DNA from: a virus | Virus record (IMG/VR): IMGVR_UViG_3300027747_000004 | Span: 1 to 64,000 of that record | Strand: one strand, 5' to 3' | DNA: 64,000 bases | Shown: one piece after another, positions 1 to 58,736 of the stretch | Layout: each line of letters begins with the position of its first letter | How positions within the stretch are numbered: position 1 is the stretch's first letter | The notes under the pieces: model-generated | Told to the model about the DNA's origin: nothing | Seen by the model: only the letters and a program-made list of their open reading frames with translations | Database searches by the model: none | Translations under genes and position numbers: made by a program

Positions 1-1790
1 AAACTCGTCGCTACTTCCGTTACCAATCGGGAAAGGGCATCCAGTTTTCTACAGGTTCCTCGTTGAAGCCTTACTTGTTCAACCCATCGTTGAGTGCAAG
101 CGGAACATCTATCGGCGCAACCATTACAGTCACCACGCAGTTTCCTCATAACCTAACTGCAAACACCGTTGTGACGGTTGCAGGCGTGGATCAAACGGGT
201 TACAACGGCACATACACAATTCTTTCTACGGGCTTGACTGCAACTGCATTTACTTACACTGCAACAACCGCCCCTTCCTCCACAACAGCAACTGGATTGA
301 ACATCAAGGTCAGCCCTTATAGCTGGTACGGGTCTAGCAACCGAATTGGTTTCTTTGACCAGCAGAACGGCATTTTCTTTGAATTTGATGGTCAAATTTT
401 GTATGCGGTGTTGCGTAGTTCTGTGACTCAAATTAACGGTCGTTCCGCCGTTACACAAGGCTCAGGAACGATTACGGGCACCAATACGCAATTTAGCACT
501 CAATTGAAGCCAAATGATTACATTGTGATTCGTGGTCAGTCGTACAAGGTGATCACAATCACCAGCGATACCTCCATGCAAGTCTCACCAGAGTACCGTG
601 GCAGCACAATAAGCCAAGGTGGCGTGATCATTTCCAAGACCATTGAAACTCGCGTTCCTCAGTCTCAATGGTTTGATCCTTGCGACGGCACTGGCCCTTC
701 AGGGTACAACATTGACCTCACCCGTATGCAGATGTGGTACATCGACTACTCTTGGTACGGTGCTGGTGTGATTCGTTGGGGCTTCCGATCTACTGGTGGT
801 GCCATCATTTACGTGTATGCGCAACAGAACAACAACATCAAGTACGAAGCCTACATGCGGTCTGGAAATATGGCTGCGCACTACGAGTCAAACAACCAGT
901 CTTTGGCAACTTACATCACAGCATCTGTAGGTACTGGTGATACCACATTGAACGTGGCAAGTACCGCAACTTTTGCACCCGCTGGTACTTTGAAAGTTCA
1001 GGCAAGCGGCACGTCTGGTGCAATTGAGTACATGACCTACACAGGCAAAACGGACACCACGTTTACCGGGCTGACCCGTGCAACTACTGGTGGCGCGGCT
1101 ACCGCGCAGTCATTTACTTACTCCGCTACTGCCCCGGTCGCAGTTGAGTATGCATCACCTGACACTGCTGCGGCTCTATCGCATTGGGGCTCTTCGGTCA
1201 TCATGGATGGTCAATTCAACGATGACAAGTCGCTGATTTTTAACTACGGAACTACGGCACAGCTTTCTGTTCCTGCGGGAGCAACCGTCCCTATTATTGC
1301 AATTCGTATCGCACCGTCTGTGGACAACGGCCAAATTGGCTTACTTGGTGTCAAAGAAATTGTCAATCGTATGCAACTGCAGTTGGTTGAACTTGGCATT
1401 GTCTCTGCTGGCACATTCCTAATCAACTTGGTTTTGAATGGGTACTGCACTAGCTTTAGCGGGGCATGGAGTTCACCCAATGTCGCCAATGGATATACCT
1501 CTTCGTTAGCGCAAGTAGCAGTCAATACAACTACTACAGCGTCAATTAGTGGCGGTGAATCAGTTGCTGCGGCGTTTACCAATTCAAGCGGGCAAACCAC
1601 ACTAGATTTAAGTGGAGTTCGGGACTTGGGTAACTCTATCCTTGGGGGTGGTACTACCTCTTCGGTTCCAACTGGACAGTCGGGGCAGTACCCAGATGGG
1701 CCTGATATTTTGTATGTAGCTGCTACTAATACGGCAGGATCAGCTACAAATATTCTGGCTCGTTTGAGCTGGAAAGAAGCGCAGGCCTAA
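1..1790 (+). CDS. 5'-truncated virion structural protein (Thr/Ser/Gly-rich beta-sandwich domains); diverged copy of 55562-58189
   Basis: The frame is open from the window edge (TRRYFRYQSGKGIQFSTGSSLKP...), so the start at 63 is not the true start. Aligns to the C-terminal two-thirds of the 875-aa ORF. Confidence 0.8.
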   Translation, partial: TRRYFRYQSGKGIQFSTGSSLKPYLFNPSLSASGTSIGATITVTTQFPHNLTANTVVTVAGVDQTGYNGTYTILSTGLTATAFTYTATTAPSSTTATGLNIKVSPYSWYGSSNRIGFFDQQNGIFFEFDGQILYAVLRSSVTQINGRSAVTQGSGTITGTNTQFSTQLKPNDYIVIRGQSYKVITITSDTSMQVSPEYRGSTISQGGVIISKTIETRVPQSQWFDPCDGTGPSGYNIDLTRMQMWYIDYSWYGAGVIRWGFRSTGGAIIYVYAQQNNNIKYEAYMRSGNMAAHYESNNQSLATYITASVGTGDTTLNVASTATFAPAGTLKVQASGTSGAIEYMTYTGKTDTTFTGLTRATTGGAATAQSFTYSATAPVAVEYASPDTAAALSHWGSSVIMDGQFNDDKSLIFNYGTTAQLSVPAGATVPIIAIRIAPSVDNGQIGLLGVKEIVNRMQLQLVELGIVSAGTFLINLVLNGYCTSFSGAWSSPNVANGYTSSLAQVAVNTTTTASISGGESVAAAFTNSSGQTTLDLSGVRDLGNSILGGGTTSSVPTGQSGQYPDGPDILYVAATNTAGSATNILARLSWKEAQA

Positions 1791-1791
1791 T

Positions 1792-2181
1792 ATGCCCTCT
1801 AAATCCCCTGCCCAACACCGCTTGATGGAGGCCGCCGCCCATACCAAGGGCGGGTACGGCGGCGTGCCCCAAAAGGTCGGCAAAGAGTTTGTGTCTGCCG
1901 ATAAGCGCAAGACCAAGAAAATGGCCGATGGTGGCATGGCCAGCTTAGGTGGCATGACATCCAGCACGCCCAGCTCCTCTGCGGGGCAATCATCCAATAT
2001 TAATCCGCCCCCGGCCATGGCCCAGGGCGGCAGGCGGGATGACCTGCCATCCGCGCCGCAGGTGCCCATGAACCCTGACGGTTCTGGACCCATGAACGCG
2101 TCGGGGTTCAAGAAGGGTGGCCACATCACCACCCGGCGTTTGTCGTCGGTGACACGGTCCAAGAAGTCCCCTAACTGGTAA
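1792..2181 (+). CDS. small basic late protein with xxxGG motifs
   Basis: 129 aa, Lys-rich, contains MADGG, MAQGG, FKKGG; starts 1 nt after the upstream stop. Confidence 0.7.
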   Translation: MPSKSPAQHRLMEAAAHTKGGYGGVPQKVGKEFVSADKRKTKKMADGGMASLGGMTSSTPSSSAGQSSNINPPPAMAQGGRRDDLPSAPQVPMNPDGSGPMNASGFKKGGHITTRRLSSVTRSKKSPNW

Positions 2182-10778: not shown

Positions 10779-11000
10779 ATGGAAATGCAGGCGCTTTTTA
10801 ACATTGCGGTCGGACTGGTTGCATTTTTTGGGGGCTGGGTGCTGAATAGCATCACGCGCTCCCTTGATAAACTTGATGCAGATGTCCGCGCCTTTCAAAG
10901 GGAGTACGTTCACAAGAACGATTACCACCGCGACATTGATGAACTGAAGTCAATCTGCAAGCAGATCTTTGACAAGCTCGATGCAAAGGCTGACAAATGA
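10779..11000 (+). CDS. small membrane protein (lysis-associated)
   Basis: AGGA RBS; N-terminal TM helix plus coiled coil. Confidence 0.6.
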   Translation: MEMQALFNIAVGLVAFFGGWVLNSITRSLDKLDADVRAFQREYVHKNDYHRDIDELKSICKQIFDKLDAKADK

Positions 11001-11638
11001 CCACACCTGCCGCCGTCCTTACTTACGACAACCTTACGTCAACCGTCCTCCAGTATTTGGAGCGGACAGATGCGGCGGTAGTGAACTTTATCCCCACAGC
11101 CATCATGTTGGCTGAGTTTGAAATCGCCCAGGACATCAAGACCCTTGGGCAGATGTTGGTAGCCGATGGCACTATGTCGACCAACAACCCGGTGATCGCC
11201 AAGCCCGCTCGGTGGCGCAAGACGGTGTCCATGACCCTCACGACCACGGCCGGCCAAAAGCAGCCCATGTACCTGCGCAAGCTGGAGTATCTTAGCTCCT
11301 ATGCCCCTGACGTGACGGCCACGGGCACGCCCATCTACTATGCCGACTACGACGCCGACCACTGGTTTGTGGCGCCCACGCCCAGCAGCAACTTTGCCTT
11401 TGAGGCGCTGGTGTACACCCGCCTGCAGCCCCTGGCCTCCGACAACCAGACCAACTGGTTGACCCAAAATGCACCCAACGCCATGCTGTATGGTACGCTC
11501 AAACAGACCGCACCATTCCTCAAGGATGACGCCCGCCTGCAAGTCTGGAGCGGCCTATTTGACGCCGCGATGGCCGCGCTGAAGGTAGAGGACCAGCTAC
11601 GCGTTGGTGACCGCCAATCCATCGTCCAGGATTCCTAA
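10997..11638 (+). CDS. second head-tail adaptor-like protein
   Basis: 'TYDNL...YLER...IPTAIMLAE', 'VAPTP', 'NWLTQNAPNAMLYG'. Confidence 0.65.
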   Translation: MTTPAAVLTYDNLTSTVLQYLERTDAAVVNFIPTAIMLAEFEIAQDIKTLGQMLVADGTMSTNNPVIAKPARWRKTVSMTLTTTAGQKQPMYLRKLEYLSSYAPDVTATGTPIYYADYDADHWFVAPTPSSNFAFEALVYTRLQPLASDNQTNWLTQNAPNAMLYGTLKQTAPFLKDDARLQVWSGLFDAAMAALKVEDQLRVGDRQSIVQDS

Positions 11639-11640
11639 TC

Positions 11641-12906
11641 ATGACAACATACACCAGCCCGTTTTCCGGCCAACAGGTATACCCTACTACGGTCAGCTAT
11701 GAGTCGCTGTCGGTAACTGCCAACACGGTCTTGCAGTGGCCGGTGAACGGCAACACCAATACGCCGGTGTCCAGCATCATCGATGTCACGGCAACGGCTA
11801 ACAGCGCCGCGCCGACTGTTGGGTGGCTGTTGGAGCTGCCGCCCGCCCAGCAGGTATCCACCGGCCAGTCCACGCTGGTGCGCAATGTGGGGTCCAACCT
11901 ATTCACGGTGACCGACACGTCTGGCAACACTATCGTGACGATTGCGTCGGGGTTGGCCTACTACATCTTCCTGACCGATAACACTACGACAAACGGGACA
12001 TGGTCCTACGTCCTGTTTGGTGCTGGCACGTCATCGGCCAACGCGTCAACCTTGGCCGGCTACGGGCTCGTTGCGTCAGGGTTAACCCTTAACCAGGTGT
12101 ACCCCGTCCTGTCGTACAGCACGACAACGACGCTGACAGTAGCAAACAGCGCCGACTTGAGTGTGTGGACCGGCGGCGCGGGATCATTTACCCTGCCATC
12201 AGCTTCTGCTGTTGGAACCGGGTGGTTCATCACGATTAAGAACAATGGCACCGGCATACTCACCATCACCCCGGCAGGCACGGATACCATCGACGGGAAT
12301 GCCAACCAGCAGTTGCAGCTAACCGAGTCGATCAGCTTGGTGTCCAACGGCGCTAACTGGAACAGTTTTGGCTACGGCCGGTCGAACTCGTTTGCGTATA
12401 CCCTGCTGTCGCTGTCGGTGACGGGCGGAACGCTCACGCTTTCCTCTACACAGGCGTCCAACACGATCCAGGTGTACGGAGGCGTGCTAACAGCGGCGCA
12501 GACAATCGTTGTCCCGTCTACGGTTCAGCTATATACCATTACCAACAATACCTCGGGGTCGTATAGCTTTACCGTTAAAACCGCGGTAAGCGGGGGCGCA
12601 AGCATTATCGTGCCCCAAGGGTCTTCGTTGGTATTGGTGTGTGACGGCACAAACGTGTACAACGCCGCTTCGGGTACTGGCAACAGCTTTACCACTTTAT
12701 CGGTGGGGAACGGTTCAACATTAAATCCCTCTATCGCTTTTAGCGCCGAAACAACGACCGGCATTTATCGCCCCACGACGGGGCAGTTTGGTATATCCGT
12801 GCTTAATACCGCGGTAGGTTATTTCTTCAACACGGGGTCCGTTACGGGCCTTAACATCACCGGCACCGGCACGTTTAGCGCAGGCATCGGTGGGGGCGCG
12901 TTCTAA
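11641..12906 (+). CDS. tail structural protein
   Basis: Thr-rich beta protein in the tail operon. Confidence 0.6.
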   Translation: MTTYTSPFSGQQVYPTTVSYESLSVTANTVLQWPVNGNTNTPVSSIIDVTATANSAAPTVGWLLELPPAQQVSTGQSTLVRNVGSNLFTVTDTSGNTIVTIASGLAYYIFLTDNTTTNGTWSYVLFGAGTSSANASTLAGYGLVASGLTLNQVYPVLSYSTTTTLTVANSADLSVWTGGAGSFTLPSASAVGTGWFITIKNNGTGILTITPAGTDTIDGNANQQLQLTESISLVSNGANWNSFGYGRSNSFAYTLLSLSVTGGTLTLSSTQASNTIQVYGGVLTAAQTIVVPSTVQLYTITNNTSGSYSFTVKTAVSGGASIIVPQGSSLVLVCDGTNVYNAASGTGNSFTTLSVGNGSTLNPSIAFSAETTTGIYRPTTGQFGISVLNTAVGYFFNTGSVTGLNITGTGTFSAGIGGGAF

Positions 12907-14930
12907 TGACCCAAAAAATTGTTGCCATGGAGATCCCGCCGGGCATCCAGCGGGATGGTACACGTTTTGATGCGCCCTGCTATACAAACGGCATGTGGGT
13001 TCGTTTCCAACGCAACCGTCCCCGCAAGATTGGTGGCTACGACGCAGTGTTTCAAAATGCGTCTGGCATATCCCGCGGCATGGCCATGACGGCTGTGAAT
13101 GGCTACAACTATGTGGTCTCTGGCTACAACAATGGCCTGCAGCAGTGGATTACCGGGCCGTCTGGCGGCGTGGGCTCAGGCCCCTATAACTTCACACTGA
13201 ACAATTTCACGGCCAGTAGCGACAACCTGTGGCAGTTTGACATCGCCTACGATTCAACCGGCAACAACACAAACAACTTGGTTGCCCACCCCGGCCAAAA
13301 TCTGTCTTACATTACGTCCACCGTCAACACCCCGGTGTTATATGGCGTGTTTCCAAGCAGCTTTGGTATCCTGTCTGGGGTGGCCATTACCGGAACGGCT
13401 GGGCAGTTTTCCGCGCTGGCGTCAGGACTCACGCCACTGGTGGTAAATCAGCAGATCACAATTAGCGGTACGTTTGGCGGTACCGGCTCAATCAGTGGTT
13501 ACACCAACCCCACAACCTATTTCATCATCGCCACCAATGGTTCGACGACGTTTACGCTGTCTGCCAGCCTTGGTGGCTCCGCCATTACCACGACCGCAGG
13601 GACGCCGACTGGCCTCACCTACACGACCGTAGGCTCTCTGTCCAAGGTGGGCGTGTTCACGGCCACGGGAACCACCAACAGCACGACGACGTTTACCCTC
13701 TCCGCTGCCAACGTACGTGTCGGGGCGGGGCAGAGTATTACTGGCCCCGGCATACCAGCGAACACCACGGTCGTATCTGTGACCGGTACCACTGTCATCC
13801 TGTCGGCGGCAGCCACGGCGTCGGCCACTATCATCGCCACCTTTGACAACAACTTGGCCGTCAGTGGCGGGTGCGTGGTGCTTCACCCGTATTTGTTCAT
13901 CTATGGCAACAATGGCCTGATCCAGAACTGCAGCGCAGGGGACTTCTCCAACTGGGTCTCCCCGGACGCCAACGCCAACAACGTGGCTACCGGAAAGATT
14001 GTCAAGGGCCTACCCATCCGTGGGGGTTCCACGTCGCCCAGCGGCCTATTCTGGGCCGCTGATGCCCTGATCCGTGTCAGCTTTCAGCCATCAAGCTCGG
14101 GCGGCGTGAACTACTACTGGGCGTACGACCTAGTGAGCAGCCAAACCTCCATCATGTCGTCGAGCAGCGTCATAGAGTACGACGGCATCTATTACTGGTG
14201 CGGGGTGGACCGGTTCTTAATGTACGGTGGCCAGGTCCAAGAGATTCCCAACGGGTTGAACCAGAACTACTTTTTTGATAACGTCAACATTGCCCAACGC
14301 CAAAAGGTGTGGGCTACAAAAGTCCCGCGCTATGGCGAGATCTGGTGGTTTTACCCCAAAGGAACGGCCACCGAATGCACCGACGCCATCATCTACAACG
14401 TGCGCGAGAAGTCGTGGTACGACGCTGGCCAAGCCCTTGGTGCCCGCCGCTCTGCTGGCGTGTTCTCTGAGGTGTTCCCAAAGCCTATTTGGGCAGGTAA
14501 TGAACTAAGCAGCGGAGGCACGGCCACGCTGTGGCAGCACGAGACCGGGTACGACTCAATAAACCTGACCAACGTGACCGCAATCCAAAGCTACTTTGAG
14601 ACAAACAGCATCGGCACCATGGGCGGTCTGGTGGGGTCACAGCAGCAGCCAGGCGACAACCTGTGGACTCGCCTCGAGCGCATTGAGCCCGACTTTGTGC
14701 AGACGGGCACCATGAGCGTCGTGGTTACCGGTGAGGGCTACGCCGACGATACTACGGTCGAGTCTGCGCCCTATTACTTTGACCCGACCACCCTCAAGAT
14801 CGACATGCGCGAGCAGCGCCGCGAGATGCGTCTGCGCTTTGAGTCCAACGTGGCCGGCGGGACCTACCAAACGGGCCGCGTGCTGTTGTCCTTAACCACC
14901 GGAGACGTGCGTGGCACGGGCAACCCATGA
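12906..14930 (+). CDS. tail nozzle / stabilisation protein (P22 gp10 or T7 gp12-like beta-propeller) with inserted surface domains
   Basis: 674 aa; 'PPGIQRDGT', 'EIWWFYP...IIYN..E..WY' propeller-like motifs; precedes the ejection genes. Confidence 0.65.
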   Translation: MTQKIVAMEIPPGIQRDGTRFDAPCYTNGMWVRFQRNRPRKIGGYDAVFQNASGISRGMAMTAVNGYNYVVSGYNNGLQQWITGPSGGVGSGPYNFTLNNFTASSDNLWQFDIAYDSTGNNTNNLVAHPGQNLSYITSTVNTPVLYGVFPSSFGILSGVAITGTAGQFSALASGLTPLVVNQQITISGTFGGTGSISGYTNPTTYFIIATNGSTTFTLSASLGGSAITTTAGTPTGLTYTTVGSLSKVGVFTATGTTNSTTTFTLSAANVRVGAGQSITGPGIPANTTVVSVTGTTVILSAAATASATIIATFDNNLAVSGGCVVLHPYLFIYGNNGLIQNCSAGDFSNWVSPDANANNVATGKIVKGLPIRGGSTSPSGLFWAADALIRVSFQPSSSGGVNYYWAYDLVSSQTSIMSSSSVIEYDGIYYWCGVDRFLMYGGQVQEIPNGLNQNYFFDNVNIAQRQKVWATKVPRYGEIWWFYPKGTATECTDAIIYNVREKSWYDAGQALGARRSAGVFSEVFPKPIWAGNELSSGGTATLWQHETGYDSINLTNVTAIQSYFETNSIGTMGGLVGSQQQPGDNLWTRLERIEPDFVQTGTMSVVVTGEGYADDTTVESAPYYFDPTTLKIDMREQRREMRLRFESNVAGGTYQTGRVLLSLTTGDVRGTGNP

Positions 14931-15154
14931 TCGCGCAGGTCTACGATCCCCGCAACCTTACGTGGGACGCCTGGTGCGCGCTCATGGCGGAACAGTATGC
15001 GGCAAACCAACTGGGCACGTCGCCCGAGTCGCAATGGCGCGAGTGGGCTAATGCTCTGTCCGGTATCGGGCGCTTTCCCGGCGCACCGGGCGCTCTTGGT
15101 TTTGACAAATGGCAGGATTGGGCGTTTGCCCTTGCCAACACGATCAGAAAATAA
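14927..15154 (+). CDS. hypothetical protein
   Basis: ATGA overlap with upstream gene; Trp-rich 75 aa. Confidence 0.6.
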   Translation: MIAQVYDPRNLTWDAWCALMAEQYAANQLGTSPESQWREWANALSGIGRFPGAPGALGFDKWQDWAFALANTIRK

Positions 15155-15156
15155 AA

Positions 15157-17083
15157 ATGGCTCTCAATCAAACCACATCATCTCCACTATCTCCAGAAGA
15201 TGCTGCCTTGCGAGCCAAAGGCCCACCTGTTGCCGGCTCAACATTTGTTCCATCACACATACAATATGCCAACGAACATCAGGGTGGAAATCAATTTGTA
15301 AAAGGCTATTGGACTGACCCAAGTGTTACTGGCGGCGGGGGTTTTCTTGGACAAGTTGCAGACTCAGTCAGCGGGGGGCTTCAACACGTCAGCGATGTTG
15401 TTTCTAACGACCCGATCGCAAAAACAATTGCGGCTGTTGGTCTTGCGGTGGCCACCGGGGGCGCGAGTTCAGCCATCAGCGGTGCGCTGCTTGATTCGGG
15501 TATTATCAGCAGCGCGGCCGTAGCAGACGCGGCAAGCTCGGCGATCATTAACGCCGGCGTGCAAATTGCGCAGGGCGTGCCGCCCGGTCAAGCGCTGACA
15601 AACGCCGCCGTGACCTTTGGTGCCGGGCAGTACATAAACCCCGCGATATCTTCCGAGATAAAGAGCATTATCAGCTCACCCACCATCGCTAACATGGCGA
15701 CCAATGCCGCGACCAGCATTGCTACAGGCGCGCTGCGCGGACAGTCTGGGGACACGCTTTTAAAGTCGGCAATTGGTGCCGCTACAGGGTCCTTGGCGGG
15801 ATCCGTGAGCAAGGAGGTTGGCCAGACGGTCCTGAATAACATTGACGACCCAACCATCGCCAAGATCGCCTCTGACGCCGCTGCCGCGGGTACCAAGGCC
15901 GCACTGACAAACCAAAACGTAGGCAAAGCCGCCTTGGACGCCGGCGCGACTACACTTGCAAATTCCAATCTTGGGATTGACAATCCGCTGTCGGGTATAA
16001 CGTCAAATCTGCCGTCGATTGACATGTCGGGCTTCAAGGCCGCGATAAAACCCATCAGCGACGCCGCAACTAAATTTGCACAGCCTATCAGCGATGCCGC
16101 TACCACGGCGCTGCAGCCCGTCAGCGACGCGGTGGCCAAGGCCACCAGCAACCTACCCACCGTAAACGCGCCCAACCTTAACTTGCCCACCGTAAACGCG
16201 CCCAACCTTAACCTGCCGAACGTGGACCTGTCTGGTGTTACTGGCGGACTCCCAACGACATCAACCGCCGGCACAGCCGACACGTCTGCGCCCCCCGCGG
16301 TAGTCCCGGGCCAGGCGATGCACTTAGGAAAAGTAGGATCCGATATGACTGAGCACCAGCTACAACAACTCTATGAGTCCTTGACCGCGGCACCTACAGA
16401 GAATTACAACTATGACAACTCTGCACCCCAATCAGTGGACGTGGCCAAGATGGAGGCACAACCCTTCATGCAACCCCAGCAACAAATGTACTTCTCCAAG
16501 ACGGGCGGCCCGGTCCAGCACTTTAATACTGGCGCACAGCCCGACCCCGCGCAAAGCGATTACACCCAAGGATTTTCTAACATAACCGACTTGGCCAAGT
16601 CCTTGCAGACCGCGGCCGATGCCGGCACGATTAGCAAAATCTACCCACACAAGATGATGATCAACGGCAATGTTGGCGTCAGCCAGTACACGCCCAAGGT
16701 TCTGCCTCAGCTCGCCGCGGTCTTGCGCGCCCGTGGCATGACTTTGGCCGATGGGGGCCAGCCCAACGACCATGAGCATCCCAACTACGATGGCACGCCG
16801 GTGTTTCGCACGGGCGGCTTGGAAGGCCTGGGCGGCAAGTACGTAGAAGGTAAGGGCGACGGCACCAGCGACGACATCACGGCTATGCTGGCCAACGGCG
16901 AGTACGTGTTCAGCGCTGACGTGGTGTCTGCCTTGGGCAACGGGTCCAACAAAGCGGGTGCAGAACGACTCAATCAAATGGTGCATGCCATCCGGGCCCG
17001 TGCGCGCTCCGCGCCCCCGGATAAGCTACCCCCAGATGCCAAGTCCCCGCTAGAATACCTGAAGTCCTCAAAGGGGAAAAAGA

Positions 17084-17091
<8 letters not shown>
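15157..17091 (+). CDS. internal virion (ejection) protein with C-terminal xxxGG motifs and a GExV domain
   Basis: Ala-rich helical body; SKTGG, LADGG, FRTGG, then 'EGKGDGTSDDITAMLANGEYVFSADVV'. ATG 15157 preferred over 15109. Confidence 0.7.
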
Positions 17092-18388
<1,297 letters not shown>

Positions 18389-38684: not shown

Positions 38685-40099
38685 GCCAGGTCGCCGAGCT
38701 GCTGCAGGACCCCGCGGTCCGCGAGAAGTACGCCAAGCTGCCCGACACGATGCGCACCGCCTTCGACTGGCGGGCGCGGTGGCTCATGAAGGCGCACAAG
38801 TTCCAGCTTGAGCCCATGGACCAGCCTTGGTCGATCTGGCTGATGCTCGGCGGCCGCGGCTCGGGCAAGACGCGCACGTCGGCCGAGACCATCGGCTGGT
38901 GGGCGTGGGAGCAGCCCGGCACGCGGTGGCTGCTGGCGGCCCCCACCGGCTCGGACATCCGGGCGACCTGCATTGAGGGCGAGTCAGGCCTATTGGCCGT
39001 CATCCCGCCGACGCTGGTGGAGAAGTACAACAGCTCGCTGCACGAGATCACGCTGGTCAACGGCTCGCTGATCAAGGGCATCCCGGCGTCTGAGCCCGAG
39101 CGCTTTCGCGGCGGCCAGTGGCACGGCGCATGGTGCGACGAGCTCGCGGCGTGGGACTACCTGCAGGAGGCGTGGGACATGATCCAGTTCGCGGTCCGAC
39201 TGGGGCAGCACACGCGCATCATCTGCTCCACCACGCCCAAGCCCAAGCCCGTGGTCATGGACCTGATCGACCGCAACGGCGACGACGTCGTGGTGACCAC
39301 CGCGTCGACCTACGTCAACATCAAGAACCTGGCCCCGTCGTTCCAAAAGCAGATCCTGCAGTACGAGGGCACCAAGCTCGGCCGCCAGGAGATCCACGCC
39401 GAGATCATTGACCCGGAGGAGTCGGGCATCGTCAAGCGCGACTGGTTCCGCCTGTGGCCCAACGGCCGGCCCTTCCCCAAGTTCGAGTACGTGGTGCAGA
39501 GCGTGGACTGCGCGGCCTCGGAGAAGACGCACAACGACCCGACGGCGCACATCACCTTCGGCGTGTTCAAGCCCGAGGACGGCGGCATGTGCGCGATGGT
39601 GATCGACTGCTGGCAGGACCACCTGCAGTACCCCGACCTGCGCCCGCGCATCCTGGACGAGTACGAGACGGTGTACGGCGAGGGCCGCGAGAAGAAGCGC
39701 GTGGACCTGCTGCTGATCGAGGACAAGAGCGCCGGCATCAGCCTGCTGCAGGACCTGCGCCGGGCCGGCGTGCCCGTGCAGGCCTACAACCCGGGCCGGG
39801 CCGACAAGATCCAGCGCCTGTCCATCGTGGCCAACATCATCAAGGCCGGGCGCGTCTGGATCCCCGAGTCGGGCAACCGCAAGGGCTTCGTGCGCGACTG
39901 GGCCGAGGGCATGGTCAGCCAGGTCTGCAGCTTCCCCGAGGGCACGGCGCACGACGACTTTGTTGACGCCATGAGCCAGGCTCTGCGATACTTGCGCGAC
40001 GCGGGGTGGCTGACCATTGACTTCCCGCGGGAGTGGGTGGACGAGGAGGACTACGCCGACGCCAACCCGCGCAAGAGGGAAAACCCATACGCGGTATAA
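38681..40099 (+). CDS. terL: terminase large subunit
   Basis: Walker A GGRGSGKT, 'WCDE', 'STTP', RNase H-like 'SVD', 'HDDFVDA'; GTG start at 38681. Confidence 0.95.
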   Translation: MSQVAELLQDPAVREKYAKLPDTMRTAFDWRARWLMKAHKFQLEPMDQPWSIWLMLGGRGSGKTRTSAETIGWWAWEQPGTRWLLAAPTGSDIRATCIEGESGLLAVIPPTLVEKYNSSLHEITLVNGSLIKGIPASEPERFRGGQWHGAWCDELAAWDYLQEAWDMIQFAVRLGQHTRIICSTTPKPKPVVMDLIDRNGDDVVVTTASTYVNIKNLAPSFQKQILQYEGTKLGRQEIHAEIIDPEESGIVKRDWFRLWPNGRPFPKFEYVVQSVDCAASEKTHNDPTAHITFGVFKPEDGGMCAMVIDCWQDHLQYPDLRPRILDEYETVYGEGREKKRVDLLLIEDKSAGISLLQDLRRAGVPVQAYNPGRADKIQRLSIVANIIKAGRVWIPESGNRKGFVRDWAEGMVSQVCSFPEGTAHDDFVDAMSQALRYLRDAGWLTIDFPREWVDEEDYADANPRKRENPYAV

Positions 40100-40128
40100 A
40101 ATGCCCGCAAACCACGCAGGACCCAGCC

Positions 40129-43035
40129 ATGGCCAAGAGACCCTACCGCGACCCGAAGACCACCAAGATCGAGGACTGGATCTGGCACCCCATGGAAAAC
40201 ATCCGCCAGCAACTCAGCACCCGACGCGAGCTGCCCGAGCACGTGATGCCCTACGCCGAGCACATGCAGCAGATGGCCAGCAAGGCGCAGGCCGGGCAGA
40301 TCAGCCCCCGCGACCTGATCAAAGCCTACACCATCACGCAGGCCAGCATCGGCCGCGGGGGCCTGAGCCACGCCACGGCCACCAAGAACGGCATGAAGCT
40401 GCAAGACACCGGCGAAGAGTTCCGCCCCGAGGGCGTGTTTGCCGAGTGGCTGGGCTCGCCTGAGGGCCAAAAATACTTGGACGACGCCGAGCGGGGCAAG
40501 GTCAACGCCCGGTCAATCCGGGACGTCGTCGCCAAGTTCTCCCCCTTCGGCAAGCAGAACGTGCAGGGCGAGGCCATGGAGTACGCGGCCCAGCACCTGC
40601 CCCAGCAGACCGCGGCGGCCAACGCCGCGCTGACCGGGTCGCTTGAAGACTACCGCAAGTTTGCCCGGGCAATCCACGGCATCAACAGCGCCAAGAGCGG
40701 GTTCATCGGCTCGCTGCTGGGCCGTGGTGACCAGCCCACGCTGGACGCCCGCCAGATCGCCCTGCACTCGCTGTACCACCCGACCAAGGTGGCCCAAAGC
40801 GTGATGGACCGCGGCAACGGCCTGGGCGGCGAGGAGGCGGTGGACCGCCTGACAGCCCGGCACAACGACCTGGGCTACACCATCCCGCCCGAGCTGGCGC
40901 CCTTCGCCCAGCACCTGATCCACCACGACATCTGGGACCAGCGCGGCGAGAACGGCCCGACCAAAACGACGCACGAGGACCTGATCCGGGCCATGCGCGG
41001 CTACGCCAAGGGTGGAGACGTGGAGCCCACCCCCGAGCAGATGCGCGAGATGCTGGCCCAGCACGGCTACATAGAGCACACACCCAAAAAACCTCATGCC
41101 GCCGTTGGCCAGCGCTATGACGTAGACCAGGCATACGGCCTTGCCCCAAAAAACGACGTGGACTTAGAGAAGCACAAGGGCGCTAGTTTGATGGTCATGC
41201 CGTGGGACAGCACCAGCCGCAACGTGCAGGTGCGCAGCATATCCGGCCACGAGCTGCCCGAGCACATTACCACGCACGGCGGCCAGGACTACGCCCGTGA
41301 CCTTGAGCACATCCTGCAGGGCATCGCAGGCGCATCAAACGAGGGGATAGCCAAACGTATTGCTGCCCGCGAAATGCAGGCCCGGATAGAAAATCTCGGC
41401 CAAGGTGGCACCGGTGAGATATTGCACATGCCCATTACCATGGGCGAGCGTGGCGAAGACTTTTCCATGACACCCACCGAGATCCTGCACCAGTTGGTAA
41501 TGCGCGGCATGCTGCCGCCAGAGGAATTGGAGCGCATGAACAACGAAATCCGCGCGCACAAAATAATTTTGAACAAAAAATCCGTCCAACCCTTTGGGGG
41601 TTTTGTTGGCCTAGAGCACCCCGAGTTTGACCAGCAAATAGTCACAGGCAAAGGCGTCGACACGACAGCAGGAAACCTGCGCAAGGCCATCGTAAACCGC
41701 GTTGGCTACCTGAAGCACAACCAAAAGGCGCTGGACTTCAACATTGAAGACCTGGTCAACGCGGTCACCGACCCCACGTTGCGCGGCGTGCCCAAGGGTT
41801 ACATCGGCAACACGGTCATTGGCAGCGACCCCGACCACATGACGCTGACACCGTCCAGCAATAAGGCGTACGACACCAACTTCTCCGGCCAGTACCTGGG
41901 CACGCTTGGCCACAGTTTTCCGGCCGAGGTGTTATTTGAAAAAGTTCTGCAGCAACTCCAGTCAAAGCACACTGGGAAAAAAGGGAATCTTCGTAACATG
42001 GCGTTGGGGGACCTTGAAAAGAGCAAAGCAAACGTATCCCAGATCTTGGACAACGAGACGCTGGACCGCTACGGCAAGTACCTGATGGCGCGCGACAAGA
42101 AGATCCGCACCGGCCATTACGCCGAGGGCGGTGAGGTCAAGAACGACGAGCCCAGCCACGACGAGATGCTGGCGCACATCATGCTCAAGGGCGTCAGCAG
42201 CCTGAAGGACGTCGGGGCCAACGAGGCGCCCAACATGCCGGTCAAGACCTACGTGCCAGCGGGTCCGGGCAAGGGCTTTCCCATCGGTGGCGTAGACTTC
42301 CAGCCCCAGCAGCCCGGCCAGCAGATGCTGCCTGGCCAGCCGCAACAACCTAGCCAACCGCAACAGCCCGGCCAGCCGCAACAGCCCGGCCAGCAAGCAG
42401 CGCCAGCACCACAGGGCCCACAGCAACCCCAGCCGCCCAGCAACATCCTGCAGATGACGCGCCAAGGCCAGACCATGAACGCGATCGCACCGCCCCAGCC
42501 GCAAGCCAAGATGGCAGGCGGCGGATCAACCCCGCCGTCGGTGGAGGAGATGCGCCGGGCCATTGCCAGCGCGGCCACGTCGGCGGGCATGAAGGCGCCC
42601 GTGACTAACACGCGCAATATGATGACCCTGCAGGACACCCACCAGTCGCTGCAGGACAGGATTCGCGGGGGCGCTGCCGACATGCAGAACATGATCGAGT
42701 CCATGCCGTTTAAGTACGACGTGGGGCACGACGTGTTTACCGCCCACAGCGCCAAAAACAACCTGCCACCGTTCAAAGTGATCCGCAGGGCATTGGTGGG
42801 GAATTCCCCCATGCGTGAGGACCACCCAACGCTCGGACCAAACATGGGCAAGTTCATCAAGGACCCGGCAACCGGCAAGACCAAACGCACACCATACGAG
42901 CCGGGCTATGACGTTCGCAGGGAGCACAAAGGCGAGGTGCACAAGATGCGCATCCCCGAGTCCGCAATTGTTGACAAGCTAGCAGGCGGCGGCACGGTCA
43001 AGGACTACATCACCATCACGGAGCGCCCACTATGA
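40129..43035 (+). CDS. large polyvalent protein 1 (HhH-GPD-like module plus unknown modules separated by xxxGG motifs)
   Basis: AGGA RBS before ATG 40129; YAKGG, YAEGG, MAGGG, LAGGG at module boundaries. Confidence 0.7.
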   Translation: MAKRPYRDPKTTKIEDWIWHPMENIRQQLSTRRELPEHVMPYAEHMQQMASKAQAGQISPRDLIKAYTITQASIGRGGLSHATATKNGMKLQDTGEEFRPEGVFAEWLGSPEGQKYLDDAERGKVNARSIRDVVAKFSPFGKQNVQGEAMEYAAQHLPQQTAAANAALTGSLEDYRKFARAIHGINSAKSGFIGSLLGRGDQPTLDARQIALHSLYHPTKVAQSVMDRGNGLGGEEAVDRLTARHNDLGYTIPPELAPFAQHLIHHDIWDQRGENGPTKTTHEDLIRAMRGYAKGGDVEPTPEQMREMLAQHGYIEHTPKKPHAAVGQRYDVDQAYGLAPKNDVDLEKHKGASLMVMPWDSTSRNVQVRSISGHELPEHITTHGGQDYARDLEHILQGIAGASNEGIAKRIAAREMQARIENLGQGGTGEILHMPITMGERGEDFSMTPTEILHQLVMRGMLPPEELERMNNEIRAHKIILNKKSVQPFGGFVGLEHPEFDQQIVTGKGVDTTAGNLRKAIVNRVGYLKHNQKALDFNIEDLVNAVTDPTLRGVPKGYIGNTVIGSDPDHMTLTPSSNKAYDTNFSGQYLGTLGHSFPAEVLFEKVLQQLQSKHTGKKGNLRNMALGDLEKSKANVSQILDNETLDRYGKYLMARDKKIRTGHYAEGGEVKNDEPSHDEMLAHIMLKGVSSLKDVGANEAPNMPVKTYVPAGPGKGFPIGGVDFQPQQPGQQMLPGQPQQPSQPQQPGQPQQPGQQAAPAPQGPQQPQPPSNILQMTRQGQTMNAIAPPQPQAKMAGGGSTPPSVEEMRRAIASAATSAGMKAPVTNTRNMMTLQDTHQSLQDRIRGGAADMQNMIESMPFKYDVGHDVFTAHSAKNNLPPFKVIRRALVGNSPMREDHPTLGPNMGKFIKDPATGKTKRTPYEPGYDVRREHKGEVHKMRIPESAIVDKLAGGGTVKDYITITERPL

Positions 43036-46000
43036 GCGGAATGTACTCACCCATTAACCGCGCTGCGGAGTCCATCACCCGCCCCAAGGGCACCGGTGCT
43101 GAGTACATGGCCGAGCTGCAGAAGAAGCCCGGCTACAAGCCCGCTGAGGCGCAGGACCGCGACCTGCAGGCGCTCATGGCGCTGCCCCAGATGGCGCGTG
43201 CGGCCTTCATGGAAAAGCTCAAAGCGCAAAAGAACAAGTACCCGCTCAAGCAGCGAGAGCTGACCGGCAGACAGACGCACCACGAGGACTACACCCTACC
43301 CGGTGGTGAAAACTACCGCGAGATCCTGCTGCACACACCAATGCCCGAGGGCGGAGGCTTCCTCGGCGTGCCGCACCACTTTGGCGGCACACCCAATATC
43401 CTTGCCAGCATTCGCGTCAAGGATCGCACCACGCCAGAAGGCAAGAAGATGCTGCACCTTGAGGAGATCCAATCCGACTGGCACCAGCACGGGCGCGAAG
43501 AGGGGTATCGACCCGCAACGTCCGAAGATGATGTTCGCAAAGCATATAACGCTCAACCACACAACGCAGTGCCGTTTGATGAGTTGCTTCCCGCCGACAA
43601 AGCGTACGAAATCCAACAATACGAAAAATCCCAAAAAGGCGTCCCTTACGGCCCCCACGCCAAGGACTGGCACGAATTGGCGCTCAAGGCCATGATCCAG
43701 CACGCCGCCGAGAACGGCTACGACCAGATTGCCATCACGCCCGGCGCGGAGCAGGCCAAGCGGTATGACTTGAGCAAGCACGTTGGACGTATCACGCACA
43801 TGACGCATCACGATGATCCTGATAGCGGCATTTTGTTTGCTTTTGATCCATCTGGTCACCAGATAATAGAAAAACACAACGTGCCCCATTCCCAACTTCC
43901 TGAGTACATTGGCAAAGAAGGGGCGCAAAAATTATTAGGGCAAAAGCCAGATGAACATGGCTACCGTGAATTAAAAGGCCAAAACCTTGAAGTTGGTGGC
44001 GAGGGCATGAAAGGCTTCTACGACCGAATGGTGCCCAGCTTTCTGAACAAGTTCGGCAAGAAGCATGGCGTGCAGGTGCAACCGGGTGCAATTGACACAG
44101 GGGAAAATCCACATGAGGTGGTGATGGATTACTCCGACCCCAAAAATATGTACGCGGTTCGCCCCGAGGGCTCTTCAAACGTGGTGTCACGGCATTTTTC
44201 AATGCACGATGCCTACAAGGCCGCAGCAAAACTTGGGCAGTCCCCACTACACACATTCGACATCACCCCAGCCATGCGCGAGGACGTGCTCAAGAACGGC
44301 ATACCGCGCTACGATAAAGGTGGCGAGGTCAAGCCAACGCACGAACTATTTCACGGAACCAACAAAGAATTCAAAAGTTTTGATAAAGACAAAAGCCATA
44401 TTGTCAATGGTGTATGGCTGACACAGGACAAAAACTACGCAAATTGGATGGCTCGTGAAAGAGCAAAGCAAGAAAAAGGAACTGCCCCAAGGGTATTACG
44501 GGTTAGCGCGTACCACAATAACCCCATGTATTTTGATATTTTGGCAGAAGGCAAAAAAGTTGCGGAACAAATTGGCGAACCAGCACCAAAAAACGCTTAC
44601 GAGGCACAGGAGTTGCTATCGGGGGGAATGGGTTGGGATAATGTCGTTGACAATTTAGTGCATGAAGCTAAAACAAAAAAGCACGATTCCTTAATAATCC
44701 ATAATTTTAATGATAATTGGCACAGCGACCCGAATCAAACCACAACAGCCCATGTAGTGTTTGATCCTAATAAGTTAAAAATAATTGACCAGCAAAAATA
44801 CGCCGAGGGCGGCGTCGTCCACAAATCCGGCGGCGGGTCGATGTACCCAACCATCCAGGAGATGATCCGGCACCTGCAGCAGGCCGGGCGCACGCCCATT
44901 GTGCCCGCACCCAACCGCTGGTTTGCGGATCCGGTAAAGCACCCCTTCCAGCAAAAGATGATCGAGCGCGTGCTGGCGCAGACTGGCCAGGGGCGCGAGG
45001 GTTTCCCGTCGGGCTCTTACATCAACCCGCAGACGGGCGAGCCCATGGACTTTGACATCATGCACGACCTGGGCGTGGCAATCGACCCCGCCACCGGGCG
45101 GCCAATGATGTCGGGCGTCAAGTCGGACCTGACATCCATCGACCCCAAGTACGGATCCATCACCCGGAGCAATTTGGTGCGCAAGGGCCTGTTCAAGCAC
45201 GAGGGCGGCGACGACTTGCTCAAGAACATTGCATTCCTCGCGACGATCGAGAAAGGCGGCAAGGGCCACCACTACGGCCTGTCGACGCACTACGCATCAC
45301 CCGCAGAGCTGGTGAACACAATGACCGGCCAAAACCCAACGCTGCGGCCGCACAGCCGCGGTGACATCTTTGGCGTGGGCGACGAGGTTGGGCGCATTTC
45401 TATCCAGGGCAAACACCACCCGGTCTATGAGAAGTTGCTGGTGGCGCCCACAGGCTCGGACGTGCAGGGCGTGAAGTTGCACAAGGCTAAGGGCGGCAAA
45501 GTTTCCGGTGAAACCAAAGCAGAGTTCATCAGCAAAAGCAAAGTGCCTGACGTGCTGTACCGTGGTGGTATCGGGCACCCAGATATGTCGGAAGACTTTT
45601 TGAAAGGCAAAGCACGGCCAGGTTACTCTACCTTTGCCTCTACGTCTCCGCACGTCGCTGGAAGCTACGCGCATCCTGATTGGGATCAATCGTGGGGTAC
45701 CCAAGACCTGGTCGGCGCAATTGCGCCTATGCACATCAAGGTGCATACGGTGCATGAGTTTCCGGTGACCACCAATAAGCATGGGTCTCGCCAATTTAGC
45801 AAATTTGAGTTTGATCGACGCGCTCAACAACTGGAGCCCGGCCATGCGTTGGTGGCGCGGCAAGTGTTTGACATGGGCCCGCGAGCTAGTGTCAAAACTG
45901 ATCCTGACAAGCTGTACAGTTACCCTAGCGACATATACGCTTGGAACAACGGCACCGAAGTGAAGTCCGCTTTTGAGAAAGCCAAAGGCGGCTCCATCAA

Positions 46001-46070
46001 AGCTAAAGTTACAATGCCGCCCAGTATGGACACGATGCAGTACGAGCTGATCAACAGGAAAGCAAAATAA
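43032..46070 (+). CDS. large polyvalent protein 2 (EEIQSD / GNAT-like module, two ADP-ribosyltransferase-like modules)
   Basis: 'LFHGT...GVWLT...A' and 'LYRG...FASTSPHVAGSYA'; YDKGG, YAEGG, KAKGG x2 boundaries. Confidence 0.7.
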   Translation: MSGMYSPINRAAESITRPKGTGAEYMAELQKKPGYKPAEAQDRDLQALMALPQMARAAFMEKLKAQKNKYPLKQRELTGRQTHHEDYTLPGGENYREILLHTPMPEGGGFLGVPHHFGGTPNILASIRVKDRTTPEGKKMLHLEEIQSDWHQHGREEGYRPATSEDDVRKAYNAQPHNAVPFDELLPADKAYEIQQYEKSQKGVPYGPHAKDWHELALKAMIQHAAENGYDQIAITPGAEQAKRYDLSKHVGRITHMTHHDDPDSGILFAFDPSGHQIIEKHNVPHSQLPEYIGKEGAQKLLGQKPDEHGYRELKGQNLEVGGEGMKGFYDRMVPSFLNKFGKKHGVQVQPGAIDTGENPHEVVMDYSDPKNMYAVRPEGSSNVVSRHFSMHDAYKAAAKLGQSPLHTFDITPAMREDVLKNGIPRYDKGGEVKPTHELFHGTNKEFKSFDKDKSHIVNGVWLTQDKNYANWMARERAKQEKGTAPRVLRVSAYHNNPMYFDILAEGKKVAEQIGEPAPKNAYEAQELLSGGMGWDNVVDNLVHEAKTKKHDSLIIHNFNDNWHSDPNQTTTAHVVFDPNKLKIIDQQKYAEGGVVHKSGGGSMYPTIQEMIRHLQQAGRTPIVPAPNRWFADPVKHPFQQKMIERVLAQTGQGREGFPSGSYINPQTGEPMDFDIMHDLGVAIDPATGRPMMSGVKSDLTSIDPKYGSITRSNLVRKGLFKHEGGDDLLKNIAFLATIEKGGKGHHYGLSTHYASPAELVNTMTGQNPTLRPHSRGDIFGVGDEVGRISIQGKHHPVYEKLLVAPTGSDVQGVKLHKAKGGKVSGETKAEFISKSKVPDVLYRGGIGHPDMSEDFLKGKARPGYSTFASTSPHVAGSYAHPDWDQSWGTQDLVGAIAPMHIKVHTVHEFPVTTNKHGSRQFSKFEFDRRAQQLEPGHALVARQVFDMGPRASVKTDPDKLYSYPSDIYAWNNGTEVKSAFEKAKGGSIKAKVTMPPSMDTMQYELINRKAK

Positions 46071-49012: not shown

Positions 49013-49089
49013 GGCAGCAATGCCCCAAGCCGCGCTGAGATATGCGCATTTTCAAACCTGAAATATGGTTTTTGTCGATAGGAGTGAGT

Positions 49090-49548
49090 ATGAGCGAGAA
49101 AGAAAAGATACCTACCATTGGTGGTGTCCAACAAGAGTCCGACCCAACTGAGCTGGCGTGGGCATTTCCAGACGTTTTACCCGGGCAAGCCCCGCTAGGT
49201 GGCCGCGTCATTGTCCAACTTCGCCGCATCAAGAAAAATGCCGGAAAGATTATCCTGGTCGAGGAGACCAAGGAGAATGAGAAGTGGAACAACATGATCG
49301 GCAGGGTGGTCGCGATTGGTCCTTTGGCCTACCGCAACCGCGACACCATGCAGGTGTGGCCCGAAGGAAGTTGGGCTGAGATCGGTGACTACGTGCGCGT
49401 GCCTCGGTGGGGCGGGGATCGCTGGGAGCGACCCGTGCTTAACGAAGAAAACGGCGACCTGAACCCGGTCCTGTTCATGACAATCAACGACCACGAGGTG
49501 ATTGCGAAGGTCACTGACGACCCGTTGTCATTTAAAGCCTACGTTTAA
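49090..49548 (+). CDS. GroES-like co-chaperonin
   Basis: 'PLGGRVIV', 'GKIIL', 'GRVVAIGP', 'GDYV..PRWGG', 'INDHEVIA'. Confidence 0.85.
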   Translation: MSEKEKIPTIGGVQQESDPTELAWAFPDVLPGQAPLGGRVIVQLRRIKKNAGKIILVEETKENEKWNNMIGRVVAIGPLAYRNRDTMQVWPEGSWAEIGDYVRVPRWGGDRWERPVLNEENGDLNPVLFMTINDHEVIAKVTDDPLSFKAYV

Positions 49549-58189: not shown

Positions 58190-58190
58190 T

Positions 58191-58736
58191 ATGCCACTAG
58201 TCAAAAGCAAATCAAAAGAAGCGTTCAGCAAAAACATTTCTGCAGAAATGAAAGCTGGCAAGCCGCAAAAGCAAGCGGTAGCCATTGCCTACTCTGTTAA
58301 GAATGCTGTTGGCAAAAAGTCTGGTGGCTTGTGGGATAACATTCACGCTAAGCAAGAGCGCATTAAAAATGGATCTGGCGAGCGTATGCGCAAGCCCGGC
58401 TCAAAAGGCGCGCCAACCGCTGCCGACTTTAAAGCATCAGCTAAGCCTGCCAAAATGAAAAACGGCGGCGACCCTGTGCTGTCTGTTAGCCGCGGTGAAA
58501 AGTTGCCTACAAGCCAAGGCGCAGGTTTGACGCAAAAAGGACGTGACAAGTTTAACCGCGCAACTGGTAGCAACCTTAAGGCTCCGCAGGCAAAAGGCTC
58601 CAGACATGACTCATTTTGCGCAAGAATGAGTGGCATGCCTGGGCCTATGAAAGATGATAAAGGCCGCCCAACACGCAAAGCCGCGTCGCTAAAACGCTGG
58701 CATTGCGCTACAGGCGGCACAGTTAAAAACTACTAG
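58191..58736 (+). CDS. basic protein with xxxGG motifs; C-terminal part homologous to 2191-2583
   Basis: KKSGG, MKNGG, CATGG; 'NIHAKQERI..GSGE.MRK.GSKGAPTA', 'SFCARM'. Confidence 0.7.
   Translation: MPLVKSKSKEAFSKNISAEMKAGKPQKQAVAIAYSVKNAVGKKSGGLWDNIHAKQERIKNGSGERMRKPGSKGAPTAADFKASAKPAKMKNGGDPVLSVSRGEKLPTSQGAGLTQKGRDKFNRATGSNLKAPQAKGSRHDSFCARMSGMPGPMKDDKGRPTRKAASLKRWHCATGGTVKNY

What the first reader, a model, noticed from the sequence alone, without database searches (positions are those of the whole stretch)
16490..17091. GExV domain at the end of an ejection protein: candidate protease or reader of the GG motif
Seen: three motifs (SKTGG ~16495, LADGG 16744, FRTGG 16804) precede 'VEGKGDGTSDDITAMLANGEYVFSADVVSALG', which carries Ser/Asp/Glu residues and has GC-richer coding than the body of the gene. 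From recollection, a similar 'FATGG...GE(F/Y)V' segment lies at the C-terminus of siphovirus tape measure proteins such as lambda gpH, which is proteolytically matured. Inference: this is a self-releasing peptidase or adaptor that also acts in trans on the other GG-tagged proteins.
Basis: partly seen in the sequence, partly recalled or inferred. Interest (0 to 1): 0.8.

Follow-up and report, generated by a model that had tools for sequence, protein, structure and literature searches.

The report
Constant tail-ruler-like end of podophage protein
The flagged stretch is the conserved last ~100 residues of an otherwise hypervariable virion protein of an uncultured short-tailed phage; it carries the same short glycine-flanked element found near the end of tail tape measure proteins such as lambda gpH, and nothing suggests it is a protease.

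Summary
The three x-x-G-G motifs and the G-rich/GEYV segment lie in the last 200 residues of the ORF at 15109/15157-17091.

- **Spread:** the module is very widespread (8526 cluster representatives at E<=1e-3). In this family it is always at the very C-terminus, on proteins of 123-1837 aa (up to 2291 aa in the viral contigs) whose front parts are unrelated.
- **Context:** in 80 related viral contigs the gene sits in a fixed order: SU10-type adaptor, fibre-like protein, nozzle-like protein, a 75-aa protein, this gene, then a Q/N-rich protein.
- **Tape measure link:** profile-profile comparison ties the core to an element of siphophage tape measure proteins. The score is 98.9% to the actinophage/Nitrincola type and 64% directly to the lambda type. 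The two tape measure types match each other at 92%.
- **Protease or GG-reader idea:** not supported. There is no family match and no confident fold. The Ser/Asp residues are missing from lambda-type elements and from the second unit of tandem variants. Lambda carries the element without any other GG-rich late protein.

My reading is a non-enzymatic docking or plug end, possibly a processing site, of a tape-measure-like ejected protein. This is an inference. Earlier follow-ups in this scan reached a similar reading on other DNA.

The parts
15157..17091 (+). Gene for the variable-front, constant-end virion protein. The ORF opens at 15109; the probable start is Met17 at 15157, giving 644 aa.
   Evidence: Only the last ~80-100 residues are conserved among 77 orthologues of 135-2291 aa.
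16495..16509 (+). SKTGG mini-motif (preceded by F: F-S-K-T-G-G-P-V)
16744..16758 (+). LADGG mini-motif
   Evidence: The motifs cluster 90-200 aa from the C-terminus in orthologues.
16804..16818 (+). FRTGG mini-motif, part of the conserved module (F-[RI]-T-G in relatives)
16843..16947 (+). Core unit: G-x-G-D-G-x-S-D-D loop, I-x-A-M-L, G-E-Y-V, a short helix and a G-N-G-S loop. Invariant residues are S587, D588, E598 and S613.
   Evidence: Alignment A2; hhalign 98.9% to tape measure elements; PHROG tape measure hits
16948..17010 (+). Predicted long helix (the L..M...IR motif), the best-predicted part of the module
   Evidence: AlphaFold2 helices at residues 106-126 and 64-84 of the two models
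17011..17088 (+). Pro/Lys-rich terminal tail with the near-invariant PP..K-S-P-L-x-Y-L peptide (17041-17064)
14927..15154 (+). Conserved 75-aa Trp-rich protein directly upstream (found in 76 of 80 loci); no known family
12906..14930 (+). Nozzle/hub-like virion protein (phrog_3287; the homologue in MW202545 is annotated as a stabilization protein)
10997..11638 (+). SU10-type adaptor protein (PF24175, E 4e-21)
17084..18388 (+). Q/N/A/T-rich protein whose start overlaps the stop of the target by 8 nt; conserved downstream neighbour in 63 of 80 loci

Best explanation
Window 16744-17088 encodes the constant C-terminal module of a protein whose front part varies freely in length and sequence. The gene lies right behind the nozzle gene in a large family of uncultured podophages that carry an SU10-type adaptor.

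The module has four parts:
- one to three aromatic-x-x-G-G mini-motifs;
- a glycine loop and the G-E-[YF]-V strand;
- two helices;
- a Pro/Lys-rich tail ending in K-S-P-L-x-Y-L.

Its core is homologous to the element near the C-terminus of siphophage tape measure proteins. In lambda that element lies in the cleaved-off fragment gpHC.

I infer that the module is not an enzyme. It most likely folds only when assembled and fixes the exit-first end of this tape-measure-like protein in the tail channel or ejection apparatus. The GG-rich joint in front of it may also serve as a processing site.

Shown here: homology, strict C-terminal position, gene order, and lack of a predicted fold or a universal catalytic set. 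Inferred: docking, ejection and any cleavage.
For: - Spread and position: 8526 representatives at E<=1e-3, always C-terminal in this family, on proteins of 123-1837 aa. Only residues ~560-655 are shared by 77 orthologues.
- Gene order: adaptor, fibre-like, nozzle-like, 75-aa ORF, target, Q/N-rich protein is fixed in about 75 of 80 viral loci. The adaptor matches PF24175 SU10_adaptor. In SU10 the nozzle gene (gp17) is followed by the needle gene (gp18), and gp20-24 are the ejection proteins (PMC9509320).
- Tape measure homology: hhalign A2 vs A4 98.9%, E 4e-17; A4 vs A3 92%; A2 vs A3 64%. Seven PHROG tape measure families hit the core.
- Distance from the end: in Drexlerviridae and N15 tape measure proteins the element sits 64-80 aa from the C-terminus, much as here.
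- Lambda and T5: in lambda the element lies in gpHC. Residues 690-817 are unresolved, and residues 818-849 bind gpI in the tail tip (PMC12617516). T5 pb2C likewise plugs the hub.
- Structure prediction: AlphaFold2 gives only two or three helices and no globular fold.
- Trimer hint: collagen repeats in one orthologue point to a trimeric, elongated protein.
Against: - No direct evidence that the protein is in the virion or is ejected.
- No binding partner has been identified.
- Low AlphaFold2 confidence does not prove that there is no fold.
- Some relatives carry extracellular-type domains (chitin-binding, RTX, DUF4214, collagen). These would also fit an external central fibre anchored by its C-terminus.
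- The invariant G-x-S-D-D loop within this family hints at a specific chemistry or metal site that simple docking does not explain.
- The element occurs in virions with unrelated tail tips, so one shared virion partner is not obvious.
Confidence: 0.55

Rival explanations
1. One reading: the module is a self-releasing peptidase, or an adaptor or reader, that also acts in trans on other GG-motif proteins such as the products of 40033, 43032 and 53961.
For: - Ser, Asp and Glu are invariant within this family (S587, D588, E598).
- In lambda the homologous element lies just downstream of the gpH cleavage region, and how that cleavage is catalysed is unknown (PMC12617516).
- The hxxGG motif is enriched in the products of 40033, 43032 and 53961 (p 0.003-0.02).
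- A homologue of the KKGG-repeat protein (53961) is present in 5 of 5 related genomes that carry the module.
- No JAB, C39 or NlpC/P60 peptidase is detectable in this record, so no other candidate protease is visible.
Against: - No peptidase family matches.
- No compact fold or groove is predicted and Foldseek finds nothing.
- The S-D-D loop is missing from lambda-type elements and from the distal unit of tandem variants. Only one acidic residue is universal, and it is Asp in some units.
- Among lambda late proteins only gpH is enriched in the motif, so the element does not need trans substrates.
- Lambda encodes its own tail-assembly peptidase, gpK (NlpC/P60 plus a partial JAB match). It is a more conventional candidate for cutting at GG.
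- The co-occurrence seen here is within one phage family and is not independent.
Confidence: 0.1
2. The module acts after ejection on a universal host envelope component. It would bind peptidoglycan or membrane, or a metal through the G-x-G-D-G-x-S-D-D loop, and anchor the channel-forming protein in the cell wall.
For: - The element occurs in phages of Actinobacteria, Proteobacteria and Cyanobacteria whose tail tips are unrelated. That favours a partner common to all hosts, or a self-contained function.
- The loop resembles Gly/Asp-rich calcium loops, and one relative is annotated as a calcium-binding protein.
- Some relatives carry chitin-binding and RTX domains.
Against: - No match to any known binding-domain family.
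- Lambda-type elements lack the loop.
- There is no structural model to inspect.
- The 'calcium-binding' label is an unverified database annotation.
Confidence: 0.15
3. The protein is an external central needle or fibre. The conserved C-terminus is plugged into the nozzle and the variable front is exposed for host contact.
For: - The gene lies near where SU10 (gp18) and P22 (gp26) encode the tail needle, separated from the nozzle gene only by a 75-aa ORF (the P22 gene order is from my own knowledge).
- Collagen, DUF4214, chitin-binding and RTX domains in relatives are typical of surface-exposed proteins.
- The extreme variability of the front part resembles receptor-binding proteins.
Against: - Known needles and fibres attach by their N-terminus.
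- The homology is to an internal tape measure element.
- The front of this member is low-complexity and rich in Ala, Ser and Gly, with no predicted fold (pLDDT 0.48), as in ejection proteins.
- A length range of 135-2291 aa is hard to reconcile with a fixed needle.
Confidence: 0.15

Closest known systems
GG-GE[FY]V element of lambda gpH (residues ~730-790, inside fragment gpHC; covered by TIGR01541) and of Drexlerviridae/N15 tape measure proteins
   Same: - Aromatic-x-x-G-G, then a glycine-rich stretch, then G-E-F-V-F, a short helix, G-x-G-N-L, a helix, and a second aromatic-x-x-G-G.
- It lies 64-125 aa from the C-terminus of a long, mostly non-globular virion protein.
- hhalign gives 92% to the bridging tape measure set and 64% directly.
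   Different: - Lambda-type elements lack the G-x-G-x-G-x-S-D-D loop.
- They are followed by a hub-binding helix (gpH 818-849) instead of the PP..KSPLxYL tail.
- They sit in a true tape measure protein with TMP_2 and Tape_meas_lam_C domains, next to chaperone and tube genes.
- P0001 does not match TIGR01541 or PF09718.
Internal element of actinophage and Nitrincola tape measure proteins (e.g. Arthrobacter phage GlobiWarming gp18, Rhodococcus REQ1, Gordonia GMA7; PHROGs 6090, 3547, 5448, 25241)
   Same: Near-identical core F-A-T-G-G-x-V-x-G-x-G-T-G-T-S-D-[SD]-I-P-A-x-L-S-x-G-E-[FH]-V. hhalign gives 98.9%, E 4e-17.
   Different: - There the element is internal, at about 65% of a 1300-3000-aa tape measure protein.
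- It is followed by hundreds more residues.
- The second helix and the terminal tail of the podophage module are absent.
Podophage ejection (internal virion) proteins: SU10 gp20-24, T7 gp14-16, P22 gp7/gp20/gp16
   Same: - Gene cluster immediately downstream of the adaptor and nozzle genes.
- Low-complexity sequence with no predicted fold.
   Different: - No sequence or profile similarity to any of them.
- Virion presence and ejection are untested.
- None of those proteins is known, to my knowledge, to carry this element.
T5 pb2C, the cleaved C-terminal fragment of the T5 tape measure protein
   Same: A C-terminal piece that stays in the tail tip as a plug and leaves first on infection. The cleavage site lies between a hydrophobic stretch and the C-terminal piece (bioRxiv 10.1101/2022.09.20.507954).
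   Different: pb2C carries a metallopeptidase motif. No sequence similarity to it was found here, and no hit to T5 appeared.

Membership tests
Tape measure C-terminal GG-GE[FY]V element | G-[ED]-[FYH]-V strand followed by a short helix, a G-x-G loop and an L..hM helix | tested here: met
Tape measure C-terminal GG-GE[FY]V element | Flanking aromatic-x-x-G-G mini-motifs | tested here: met
   Enrichment is 2.8-fold.
Tape measure C-terminal GG-GE[FY]V element | Profile-profile similarity to tape measure elements | tested here: met
   98.9% to the actinophage/Nitrincola type. The direct match to the lambda type is only 63.6%. The two tape measure types match each other at 92.2%.
Lambda-family tape measure C-terminal models (TIGR01541, PF09718) | Match to the curated HMM | tested here: not met
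   No Pfam or NCBIfam family for P0001. Lambda gpH matches both.
Tape measure protein (functional class) | Gene placed between frameshifted tail assembly chaperones and the distal tail protein, in a genome with a tail tube gene; N-terminal tape measure domains | tested here: not met
   The context is SU10-type adaptor plus nozzle-like genes. No TMP_2, PhageMin_Tail or TIGR01760 match.
Podophage ejection proteins | Encoded directly downstream of the nozzle/needle genes | tested here: met
Podophage ejection proteins | Present in virions and released with the genome | not testable with these tools
   No proteomics or structure is available for any family member.
Peptidase (S24/S26, S74, C39, JAB, NlpC/P60 or other) | Match to a peptidase family model | tested here: not met
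   The whole record has no match to PF14464, PF03412 or PF00877.
Peptidase (S24/S26, S74, C39, JAB, NlpC/P60 or other) | Compact fold with clustered catalytic residues or a peptide groove | tested here: inconclusive
   AlphaFold2 pLDDT is 60.6 and 52.4, with helices only. Foldseek against the PDB finds nothing at E<=0.001.
Peptidase (S24/S26, S74, C39, JAB, NlpC/P60 or other) | Candidate catalytic residues conserved in all homologues | tested here: not met
   The S-D-D loop is absent from lambda-type elements and from the distal unit of tandem variants.

The most novel reading that the evidence does not exclude
The GG-GE[FY]V element is a self-contained, assembly-triggered processing module. 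On oligomerisation inside the tail it would cut, or direct cutting of, the glycine-rich joint just upstream. That would explain the long-unsolved maturation of lambda gpH to gpH* plus gpHC. Podophages of this family would use the same device to release variable cargo fronts from a constant docking end.
Probability: 0.1. Interest if true: 0.75.

Novelty: new variant of a known kind. Interest (0 to 1): 0.45.

Why it matters
The element has no Pfam entry, and its function is unknown even in lambda, where it lies in the unresolved part of gpHC next to a cleavage whose catalyst is still unknown. Two things are useful here.

- The same element forms the strictly conserved end of a huge, uncultured family of podophage proteins with freely swapped fronts.
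- This links tape measure proteins and podophage ejection proteins through a shared exit-end device.

The finding gives a clean, compact system of about 100 residues in which to test what the element does. It also supplies an annotation handle for thousands of hypothetical phage proteins.

Tried and rejected
- **Homotrimer prediction:** three copies of the 110-aa module with alignment A2 gave no verdict (score 0.20 against a mark of 0.42). I do not use it as evidence either way.
- **AlphaFold2 monomer models:** both had low confidence. I therefore ran the fold search only once (Foldseek against the PDB, no match) and did not run the VIA-align libraries, whose matches would have been meaningless.
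- **PDB sequence searches:** phmmer and a profile search found nothing relevant.
- **ESM Atlas:** only unnamed viral clusters came back.
- **Literature search on motif strings:** it returned only unrelated papers.
- **Resemblances considered from memory and rejected:**
  - S24/S26 'G-D-S-M...G-D-x-h-V': the spacing is similar, but that fold is an all-beta domain of about 130 aa and the Ser is not universal here.
  - S74 self-cleaving chaperone domain 'S-D-x-R-x-K': there is no Lys at the equivalent position.
  - Ribbon-helix-helix fold: the topology is only superficially alike.
- **Hydropathy scan:** it found only a weak hydrophobic segment (KD19 of 1.5 at residues ~90-112), so I make no transmembrane claim.
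- **Pfam scan of twelve long orthologues:** few domains turned up (DUF4214, collagen, ALTTAQ repeats). In this family the variable front is therefore not demonstrably enzymatic cargo.

Full report
**1. Observation**

The ORF at 15109-17091 (+) translates without stops to 660 aa.
- SKTGG at 16495-16509
- LADGG at 16744-16758
- FRTGG at 16804-16818
- the VEGKGDG...GEYV...SALG segment at 16843-16938

The real start is probably Met17 at 15157. That is three bases after the stop of a conserved 75-aa ORF (14927-15154), and the ESM Atlas holds the protein from that residue on.

The 'GC-richer' remark is marginal: GC is 0.601 against 0.566, and GC3 is 0.598 against 0.589.

**2. How widespread the module is**

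An exhaustive HMMER search with the last 152 residues found 8526 cluster representatives at E<=1e-3 and 2016 at E<=1e-10. In the best 150, the match always ends at the C-terminus, and the host proteins are 123-1837 aa long.

A word-indexed search gave 185 close relatives of 383-1128 aa. They are 61-93% identical in the last 141 residues, and their front parts are unalignable.

Against 77 orthologues from viral contigs (135-2291 aa), only residues ~560-655 of the query are shared.

Alignment A2 (71 sequences) gives 24 invariant positions. They include three glycines of the loop, S587, D588, G597, E598, S613, two arginines of the long helix and a Pro-Pro pair. A near-invariant K-S-P-L-x-Y-L peptide closes the protein. 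Many relatives carry two tandem units, and the distal unit lacks the G-x-G-x-G-x-S-D-D loop.

No Pfam, NCBIfam, PHROG (whole protein) or PDB sequence match exists.

**3. Gene context**

The 213-aa protein at 10997-11638 matches PF24175, the SU10 adaptor (E 4e-21).

In 80 viral contigs the gene order is nearly invariant:
1. adaptor
2. a 420-aa fibre-like protein
3. a nozzle-like protein (phrog_3287)
4. the 75-aa ORF
5. this gene
6. a Q/N/A/T-rich protein whose start overlaps the stop of this gene

The same order holds in MW202545 and in the Caulobacter Riverwalk phages, where the homologue is annotated as a tape measure protein.

In SU10 the nozzle gene (gp17) is followed by the needle gene (gp18), and gp20-24 are the ejection proteins (PMC9509320).

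**4. Link to tape measure proteins**

- The 83-aa core hits annotated tape measure genes of Arthrobacter, Gordonia, Rhodococcus and Nitrincola phages, among others, by tblastn.
- It also hits seven PHROG tape measure families at internal positions.
- Lambda gpH carries the same layout at residues 730-790. That stretch is conserved in 1008 phage records, including Drexlerviridae, N15 and some Arthrobacter phages.
- In Drexlerviridae and N15 the element lies 64-80 aa from the C-terminus.

Profile-profile comparison:

| Comparison | Probability | E-value |
|---|---|---|
| This family (A2) vs actinophage/Nitrincola set (A4) | 98.9% | 4e-17 |
| A4 vs lambda/Drexlerviridae set (A3) | 92.2% | 6e-7 |
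| A2 vs A3 | 63.6% | 7e-5 |

Homology to lambda is supported mainly through the bridging set.

Pfam's Tape_meas_lam_C covers only gpH 627-701, so the element is not in Pfam. TIGR01541 spans it.

**5. What is known about the element**

In Ur-lambda, gpH is cleaved in the glycine-rich region into gpH* and a ~14-kDa fragment, gpHC. Residues 818-849 of gpHC bind gpI in the tail tip. Residues ~690-817, which hold the element, are unresolved. How the cleavage is catalysed is unknown (PMC12617516).

T5 pb2 is cleaved between a hydrophobic stretch and its C-terminal piece. That piece plugs the hub and is expelled first.

**6. Test of the protease or GG-reader idea**

- Two AlphaFold2 runs gave pLDDT 60.6 and 52.4. 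Only two or three helices are predicted, and the glycine loop and GEYV part are below 50.
- Foldseek against the PDB found nothing.
- The invariant Ser/Asp residues of this family are replaced in lambda-type elements and are missing from the distal unit of tandem variants. Only one acidic residue is universal, and it is Asp in some units.
- The motif [FYM]xxGG is a real feature of the target family: 2.8-fold enriched, and depleted in the neighbours. Its copies cluster just upstream of the core.
- In this window the broader hxxGG motif is also enriched in the products of 40033, 43032 and 53961.
- A homologue of the 53961 KKGG-repeat protein occurs in 5 of 5 related genomes. These genomes belong to one family, so this is not independent evidence.
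- Among lambda late proteins only gpH is enriched in the motif, so the element exists without trans substrates.
- Lambda gpK matches NlpC/P60 and part of a JAB domain. From my own knowledge, JAB peptidases cut after Gly-Gly, which makes gpK a more conventional candidate for gpH processing.
- This record has no JAB, C39 or NlpC/P60 match.

**7. Interpretation**

The evidence best fits a non-enzymatic, assembly-dependent end module: the docking or plug end of a tape-measure-like protein. The GG-rich joint may also act as a processing site.

Three alternatives remain open:
- binding to the host envelope after ejection;
- a needle or fibre anchored by its C-terminus, for which collagen, DUF4214, chitin-binding and RTX domains in relatives give some support;
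- the peptidase idea.

In two loci (L016, L017) the body and the end are separate ORFs, so the two parts can exist as separate polypeptides.

**8. Earlier notes in this scan**

Follow-ups on other DNA (e1-5973212, e1-5381434, e1-5990100) reached similar readings. My tests here were run independently and agree with them.

Noticed in passing
window 1-1796 vs 56388-58195; whole record G000 (110,994 bp): The virus record has direct terminal repeats and holds two diverged, syntenic genomes of about 55.5 kb. The start of the window is 86.7% identical in DNA to 56388-58195. A second copy of the module, at record position 73216-73641, is only 50% identical. This is either a chimeric assembly of two related phages or a real tandem.
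   Followed up: partly
window 53961-55517: A basic 518-aa protein has about ten [FY]-K-K-G-G-K-[VI]-type repeats and a Q/M/P-rich stretch (10 hxxGG against 3.1 expected). Homologues occur in 5 of 5 related near-complete genomes. It matches no known family.
   Followed up: partly
window 40033-43035 and 43032-46070: Two proteins of about 1000 aa lie upstream of the portal gene and are enriched in hxxGG (7 observed against about 2.5 expected in each). The second carries an ART-PolyVal ADP-ribosyltransferase domain (PF18760, E 4e-9).
   Followed up: no
window 14927-15154: A Trp-rich 75-aa protein is conserved directly upstream of the target in 76 of 80 loci. It matches no family. It could be a partner or chaperone of the target.
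   Followed up: partly
L016:5884-7782 and L017:7161-9059; many other loci: In two relatives the variable body is a separate 632-aa ORF upstream of a 437-aa ORF that carries the module. Many other relatives have an extra ORF of 121-154 aa between the 75-aa gene and the target; this window has none.
   Followed up: partly
window 49042-49548: A GroES-like (Cpn10) match (E 1.5e-4, 22.1 bits against a cut-off of 21.1) lies in the head module between the portal and scaffold-like genes. No prohead protease was recognised there.
   Followed up: no
window 58191-58736: A 181-aa protein with a DUF6321 domain (E 2e-20).
   Followed up: no
L103:14276-14875 (lambda gene K): Lambda gpK matches NlpC/P60 (E 3e-13) and the end of a Prok-JAB domain (E 6e-5, below the cut-off). 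It is a possible candidate for the uncharacterised cleavage of gpH next to its GG motifs.
   Followed up: partly
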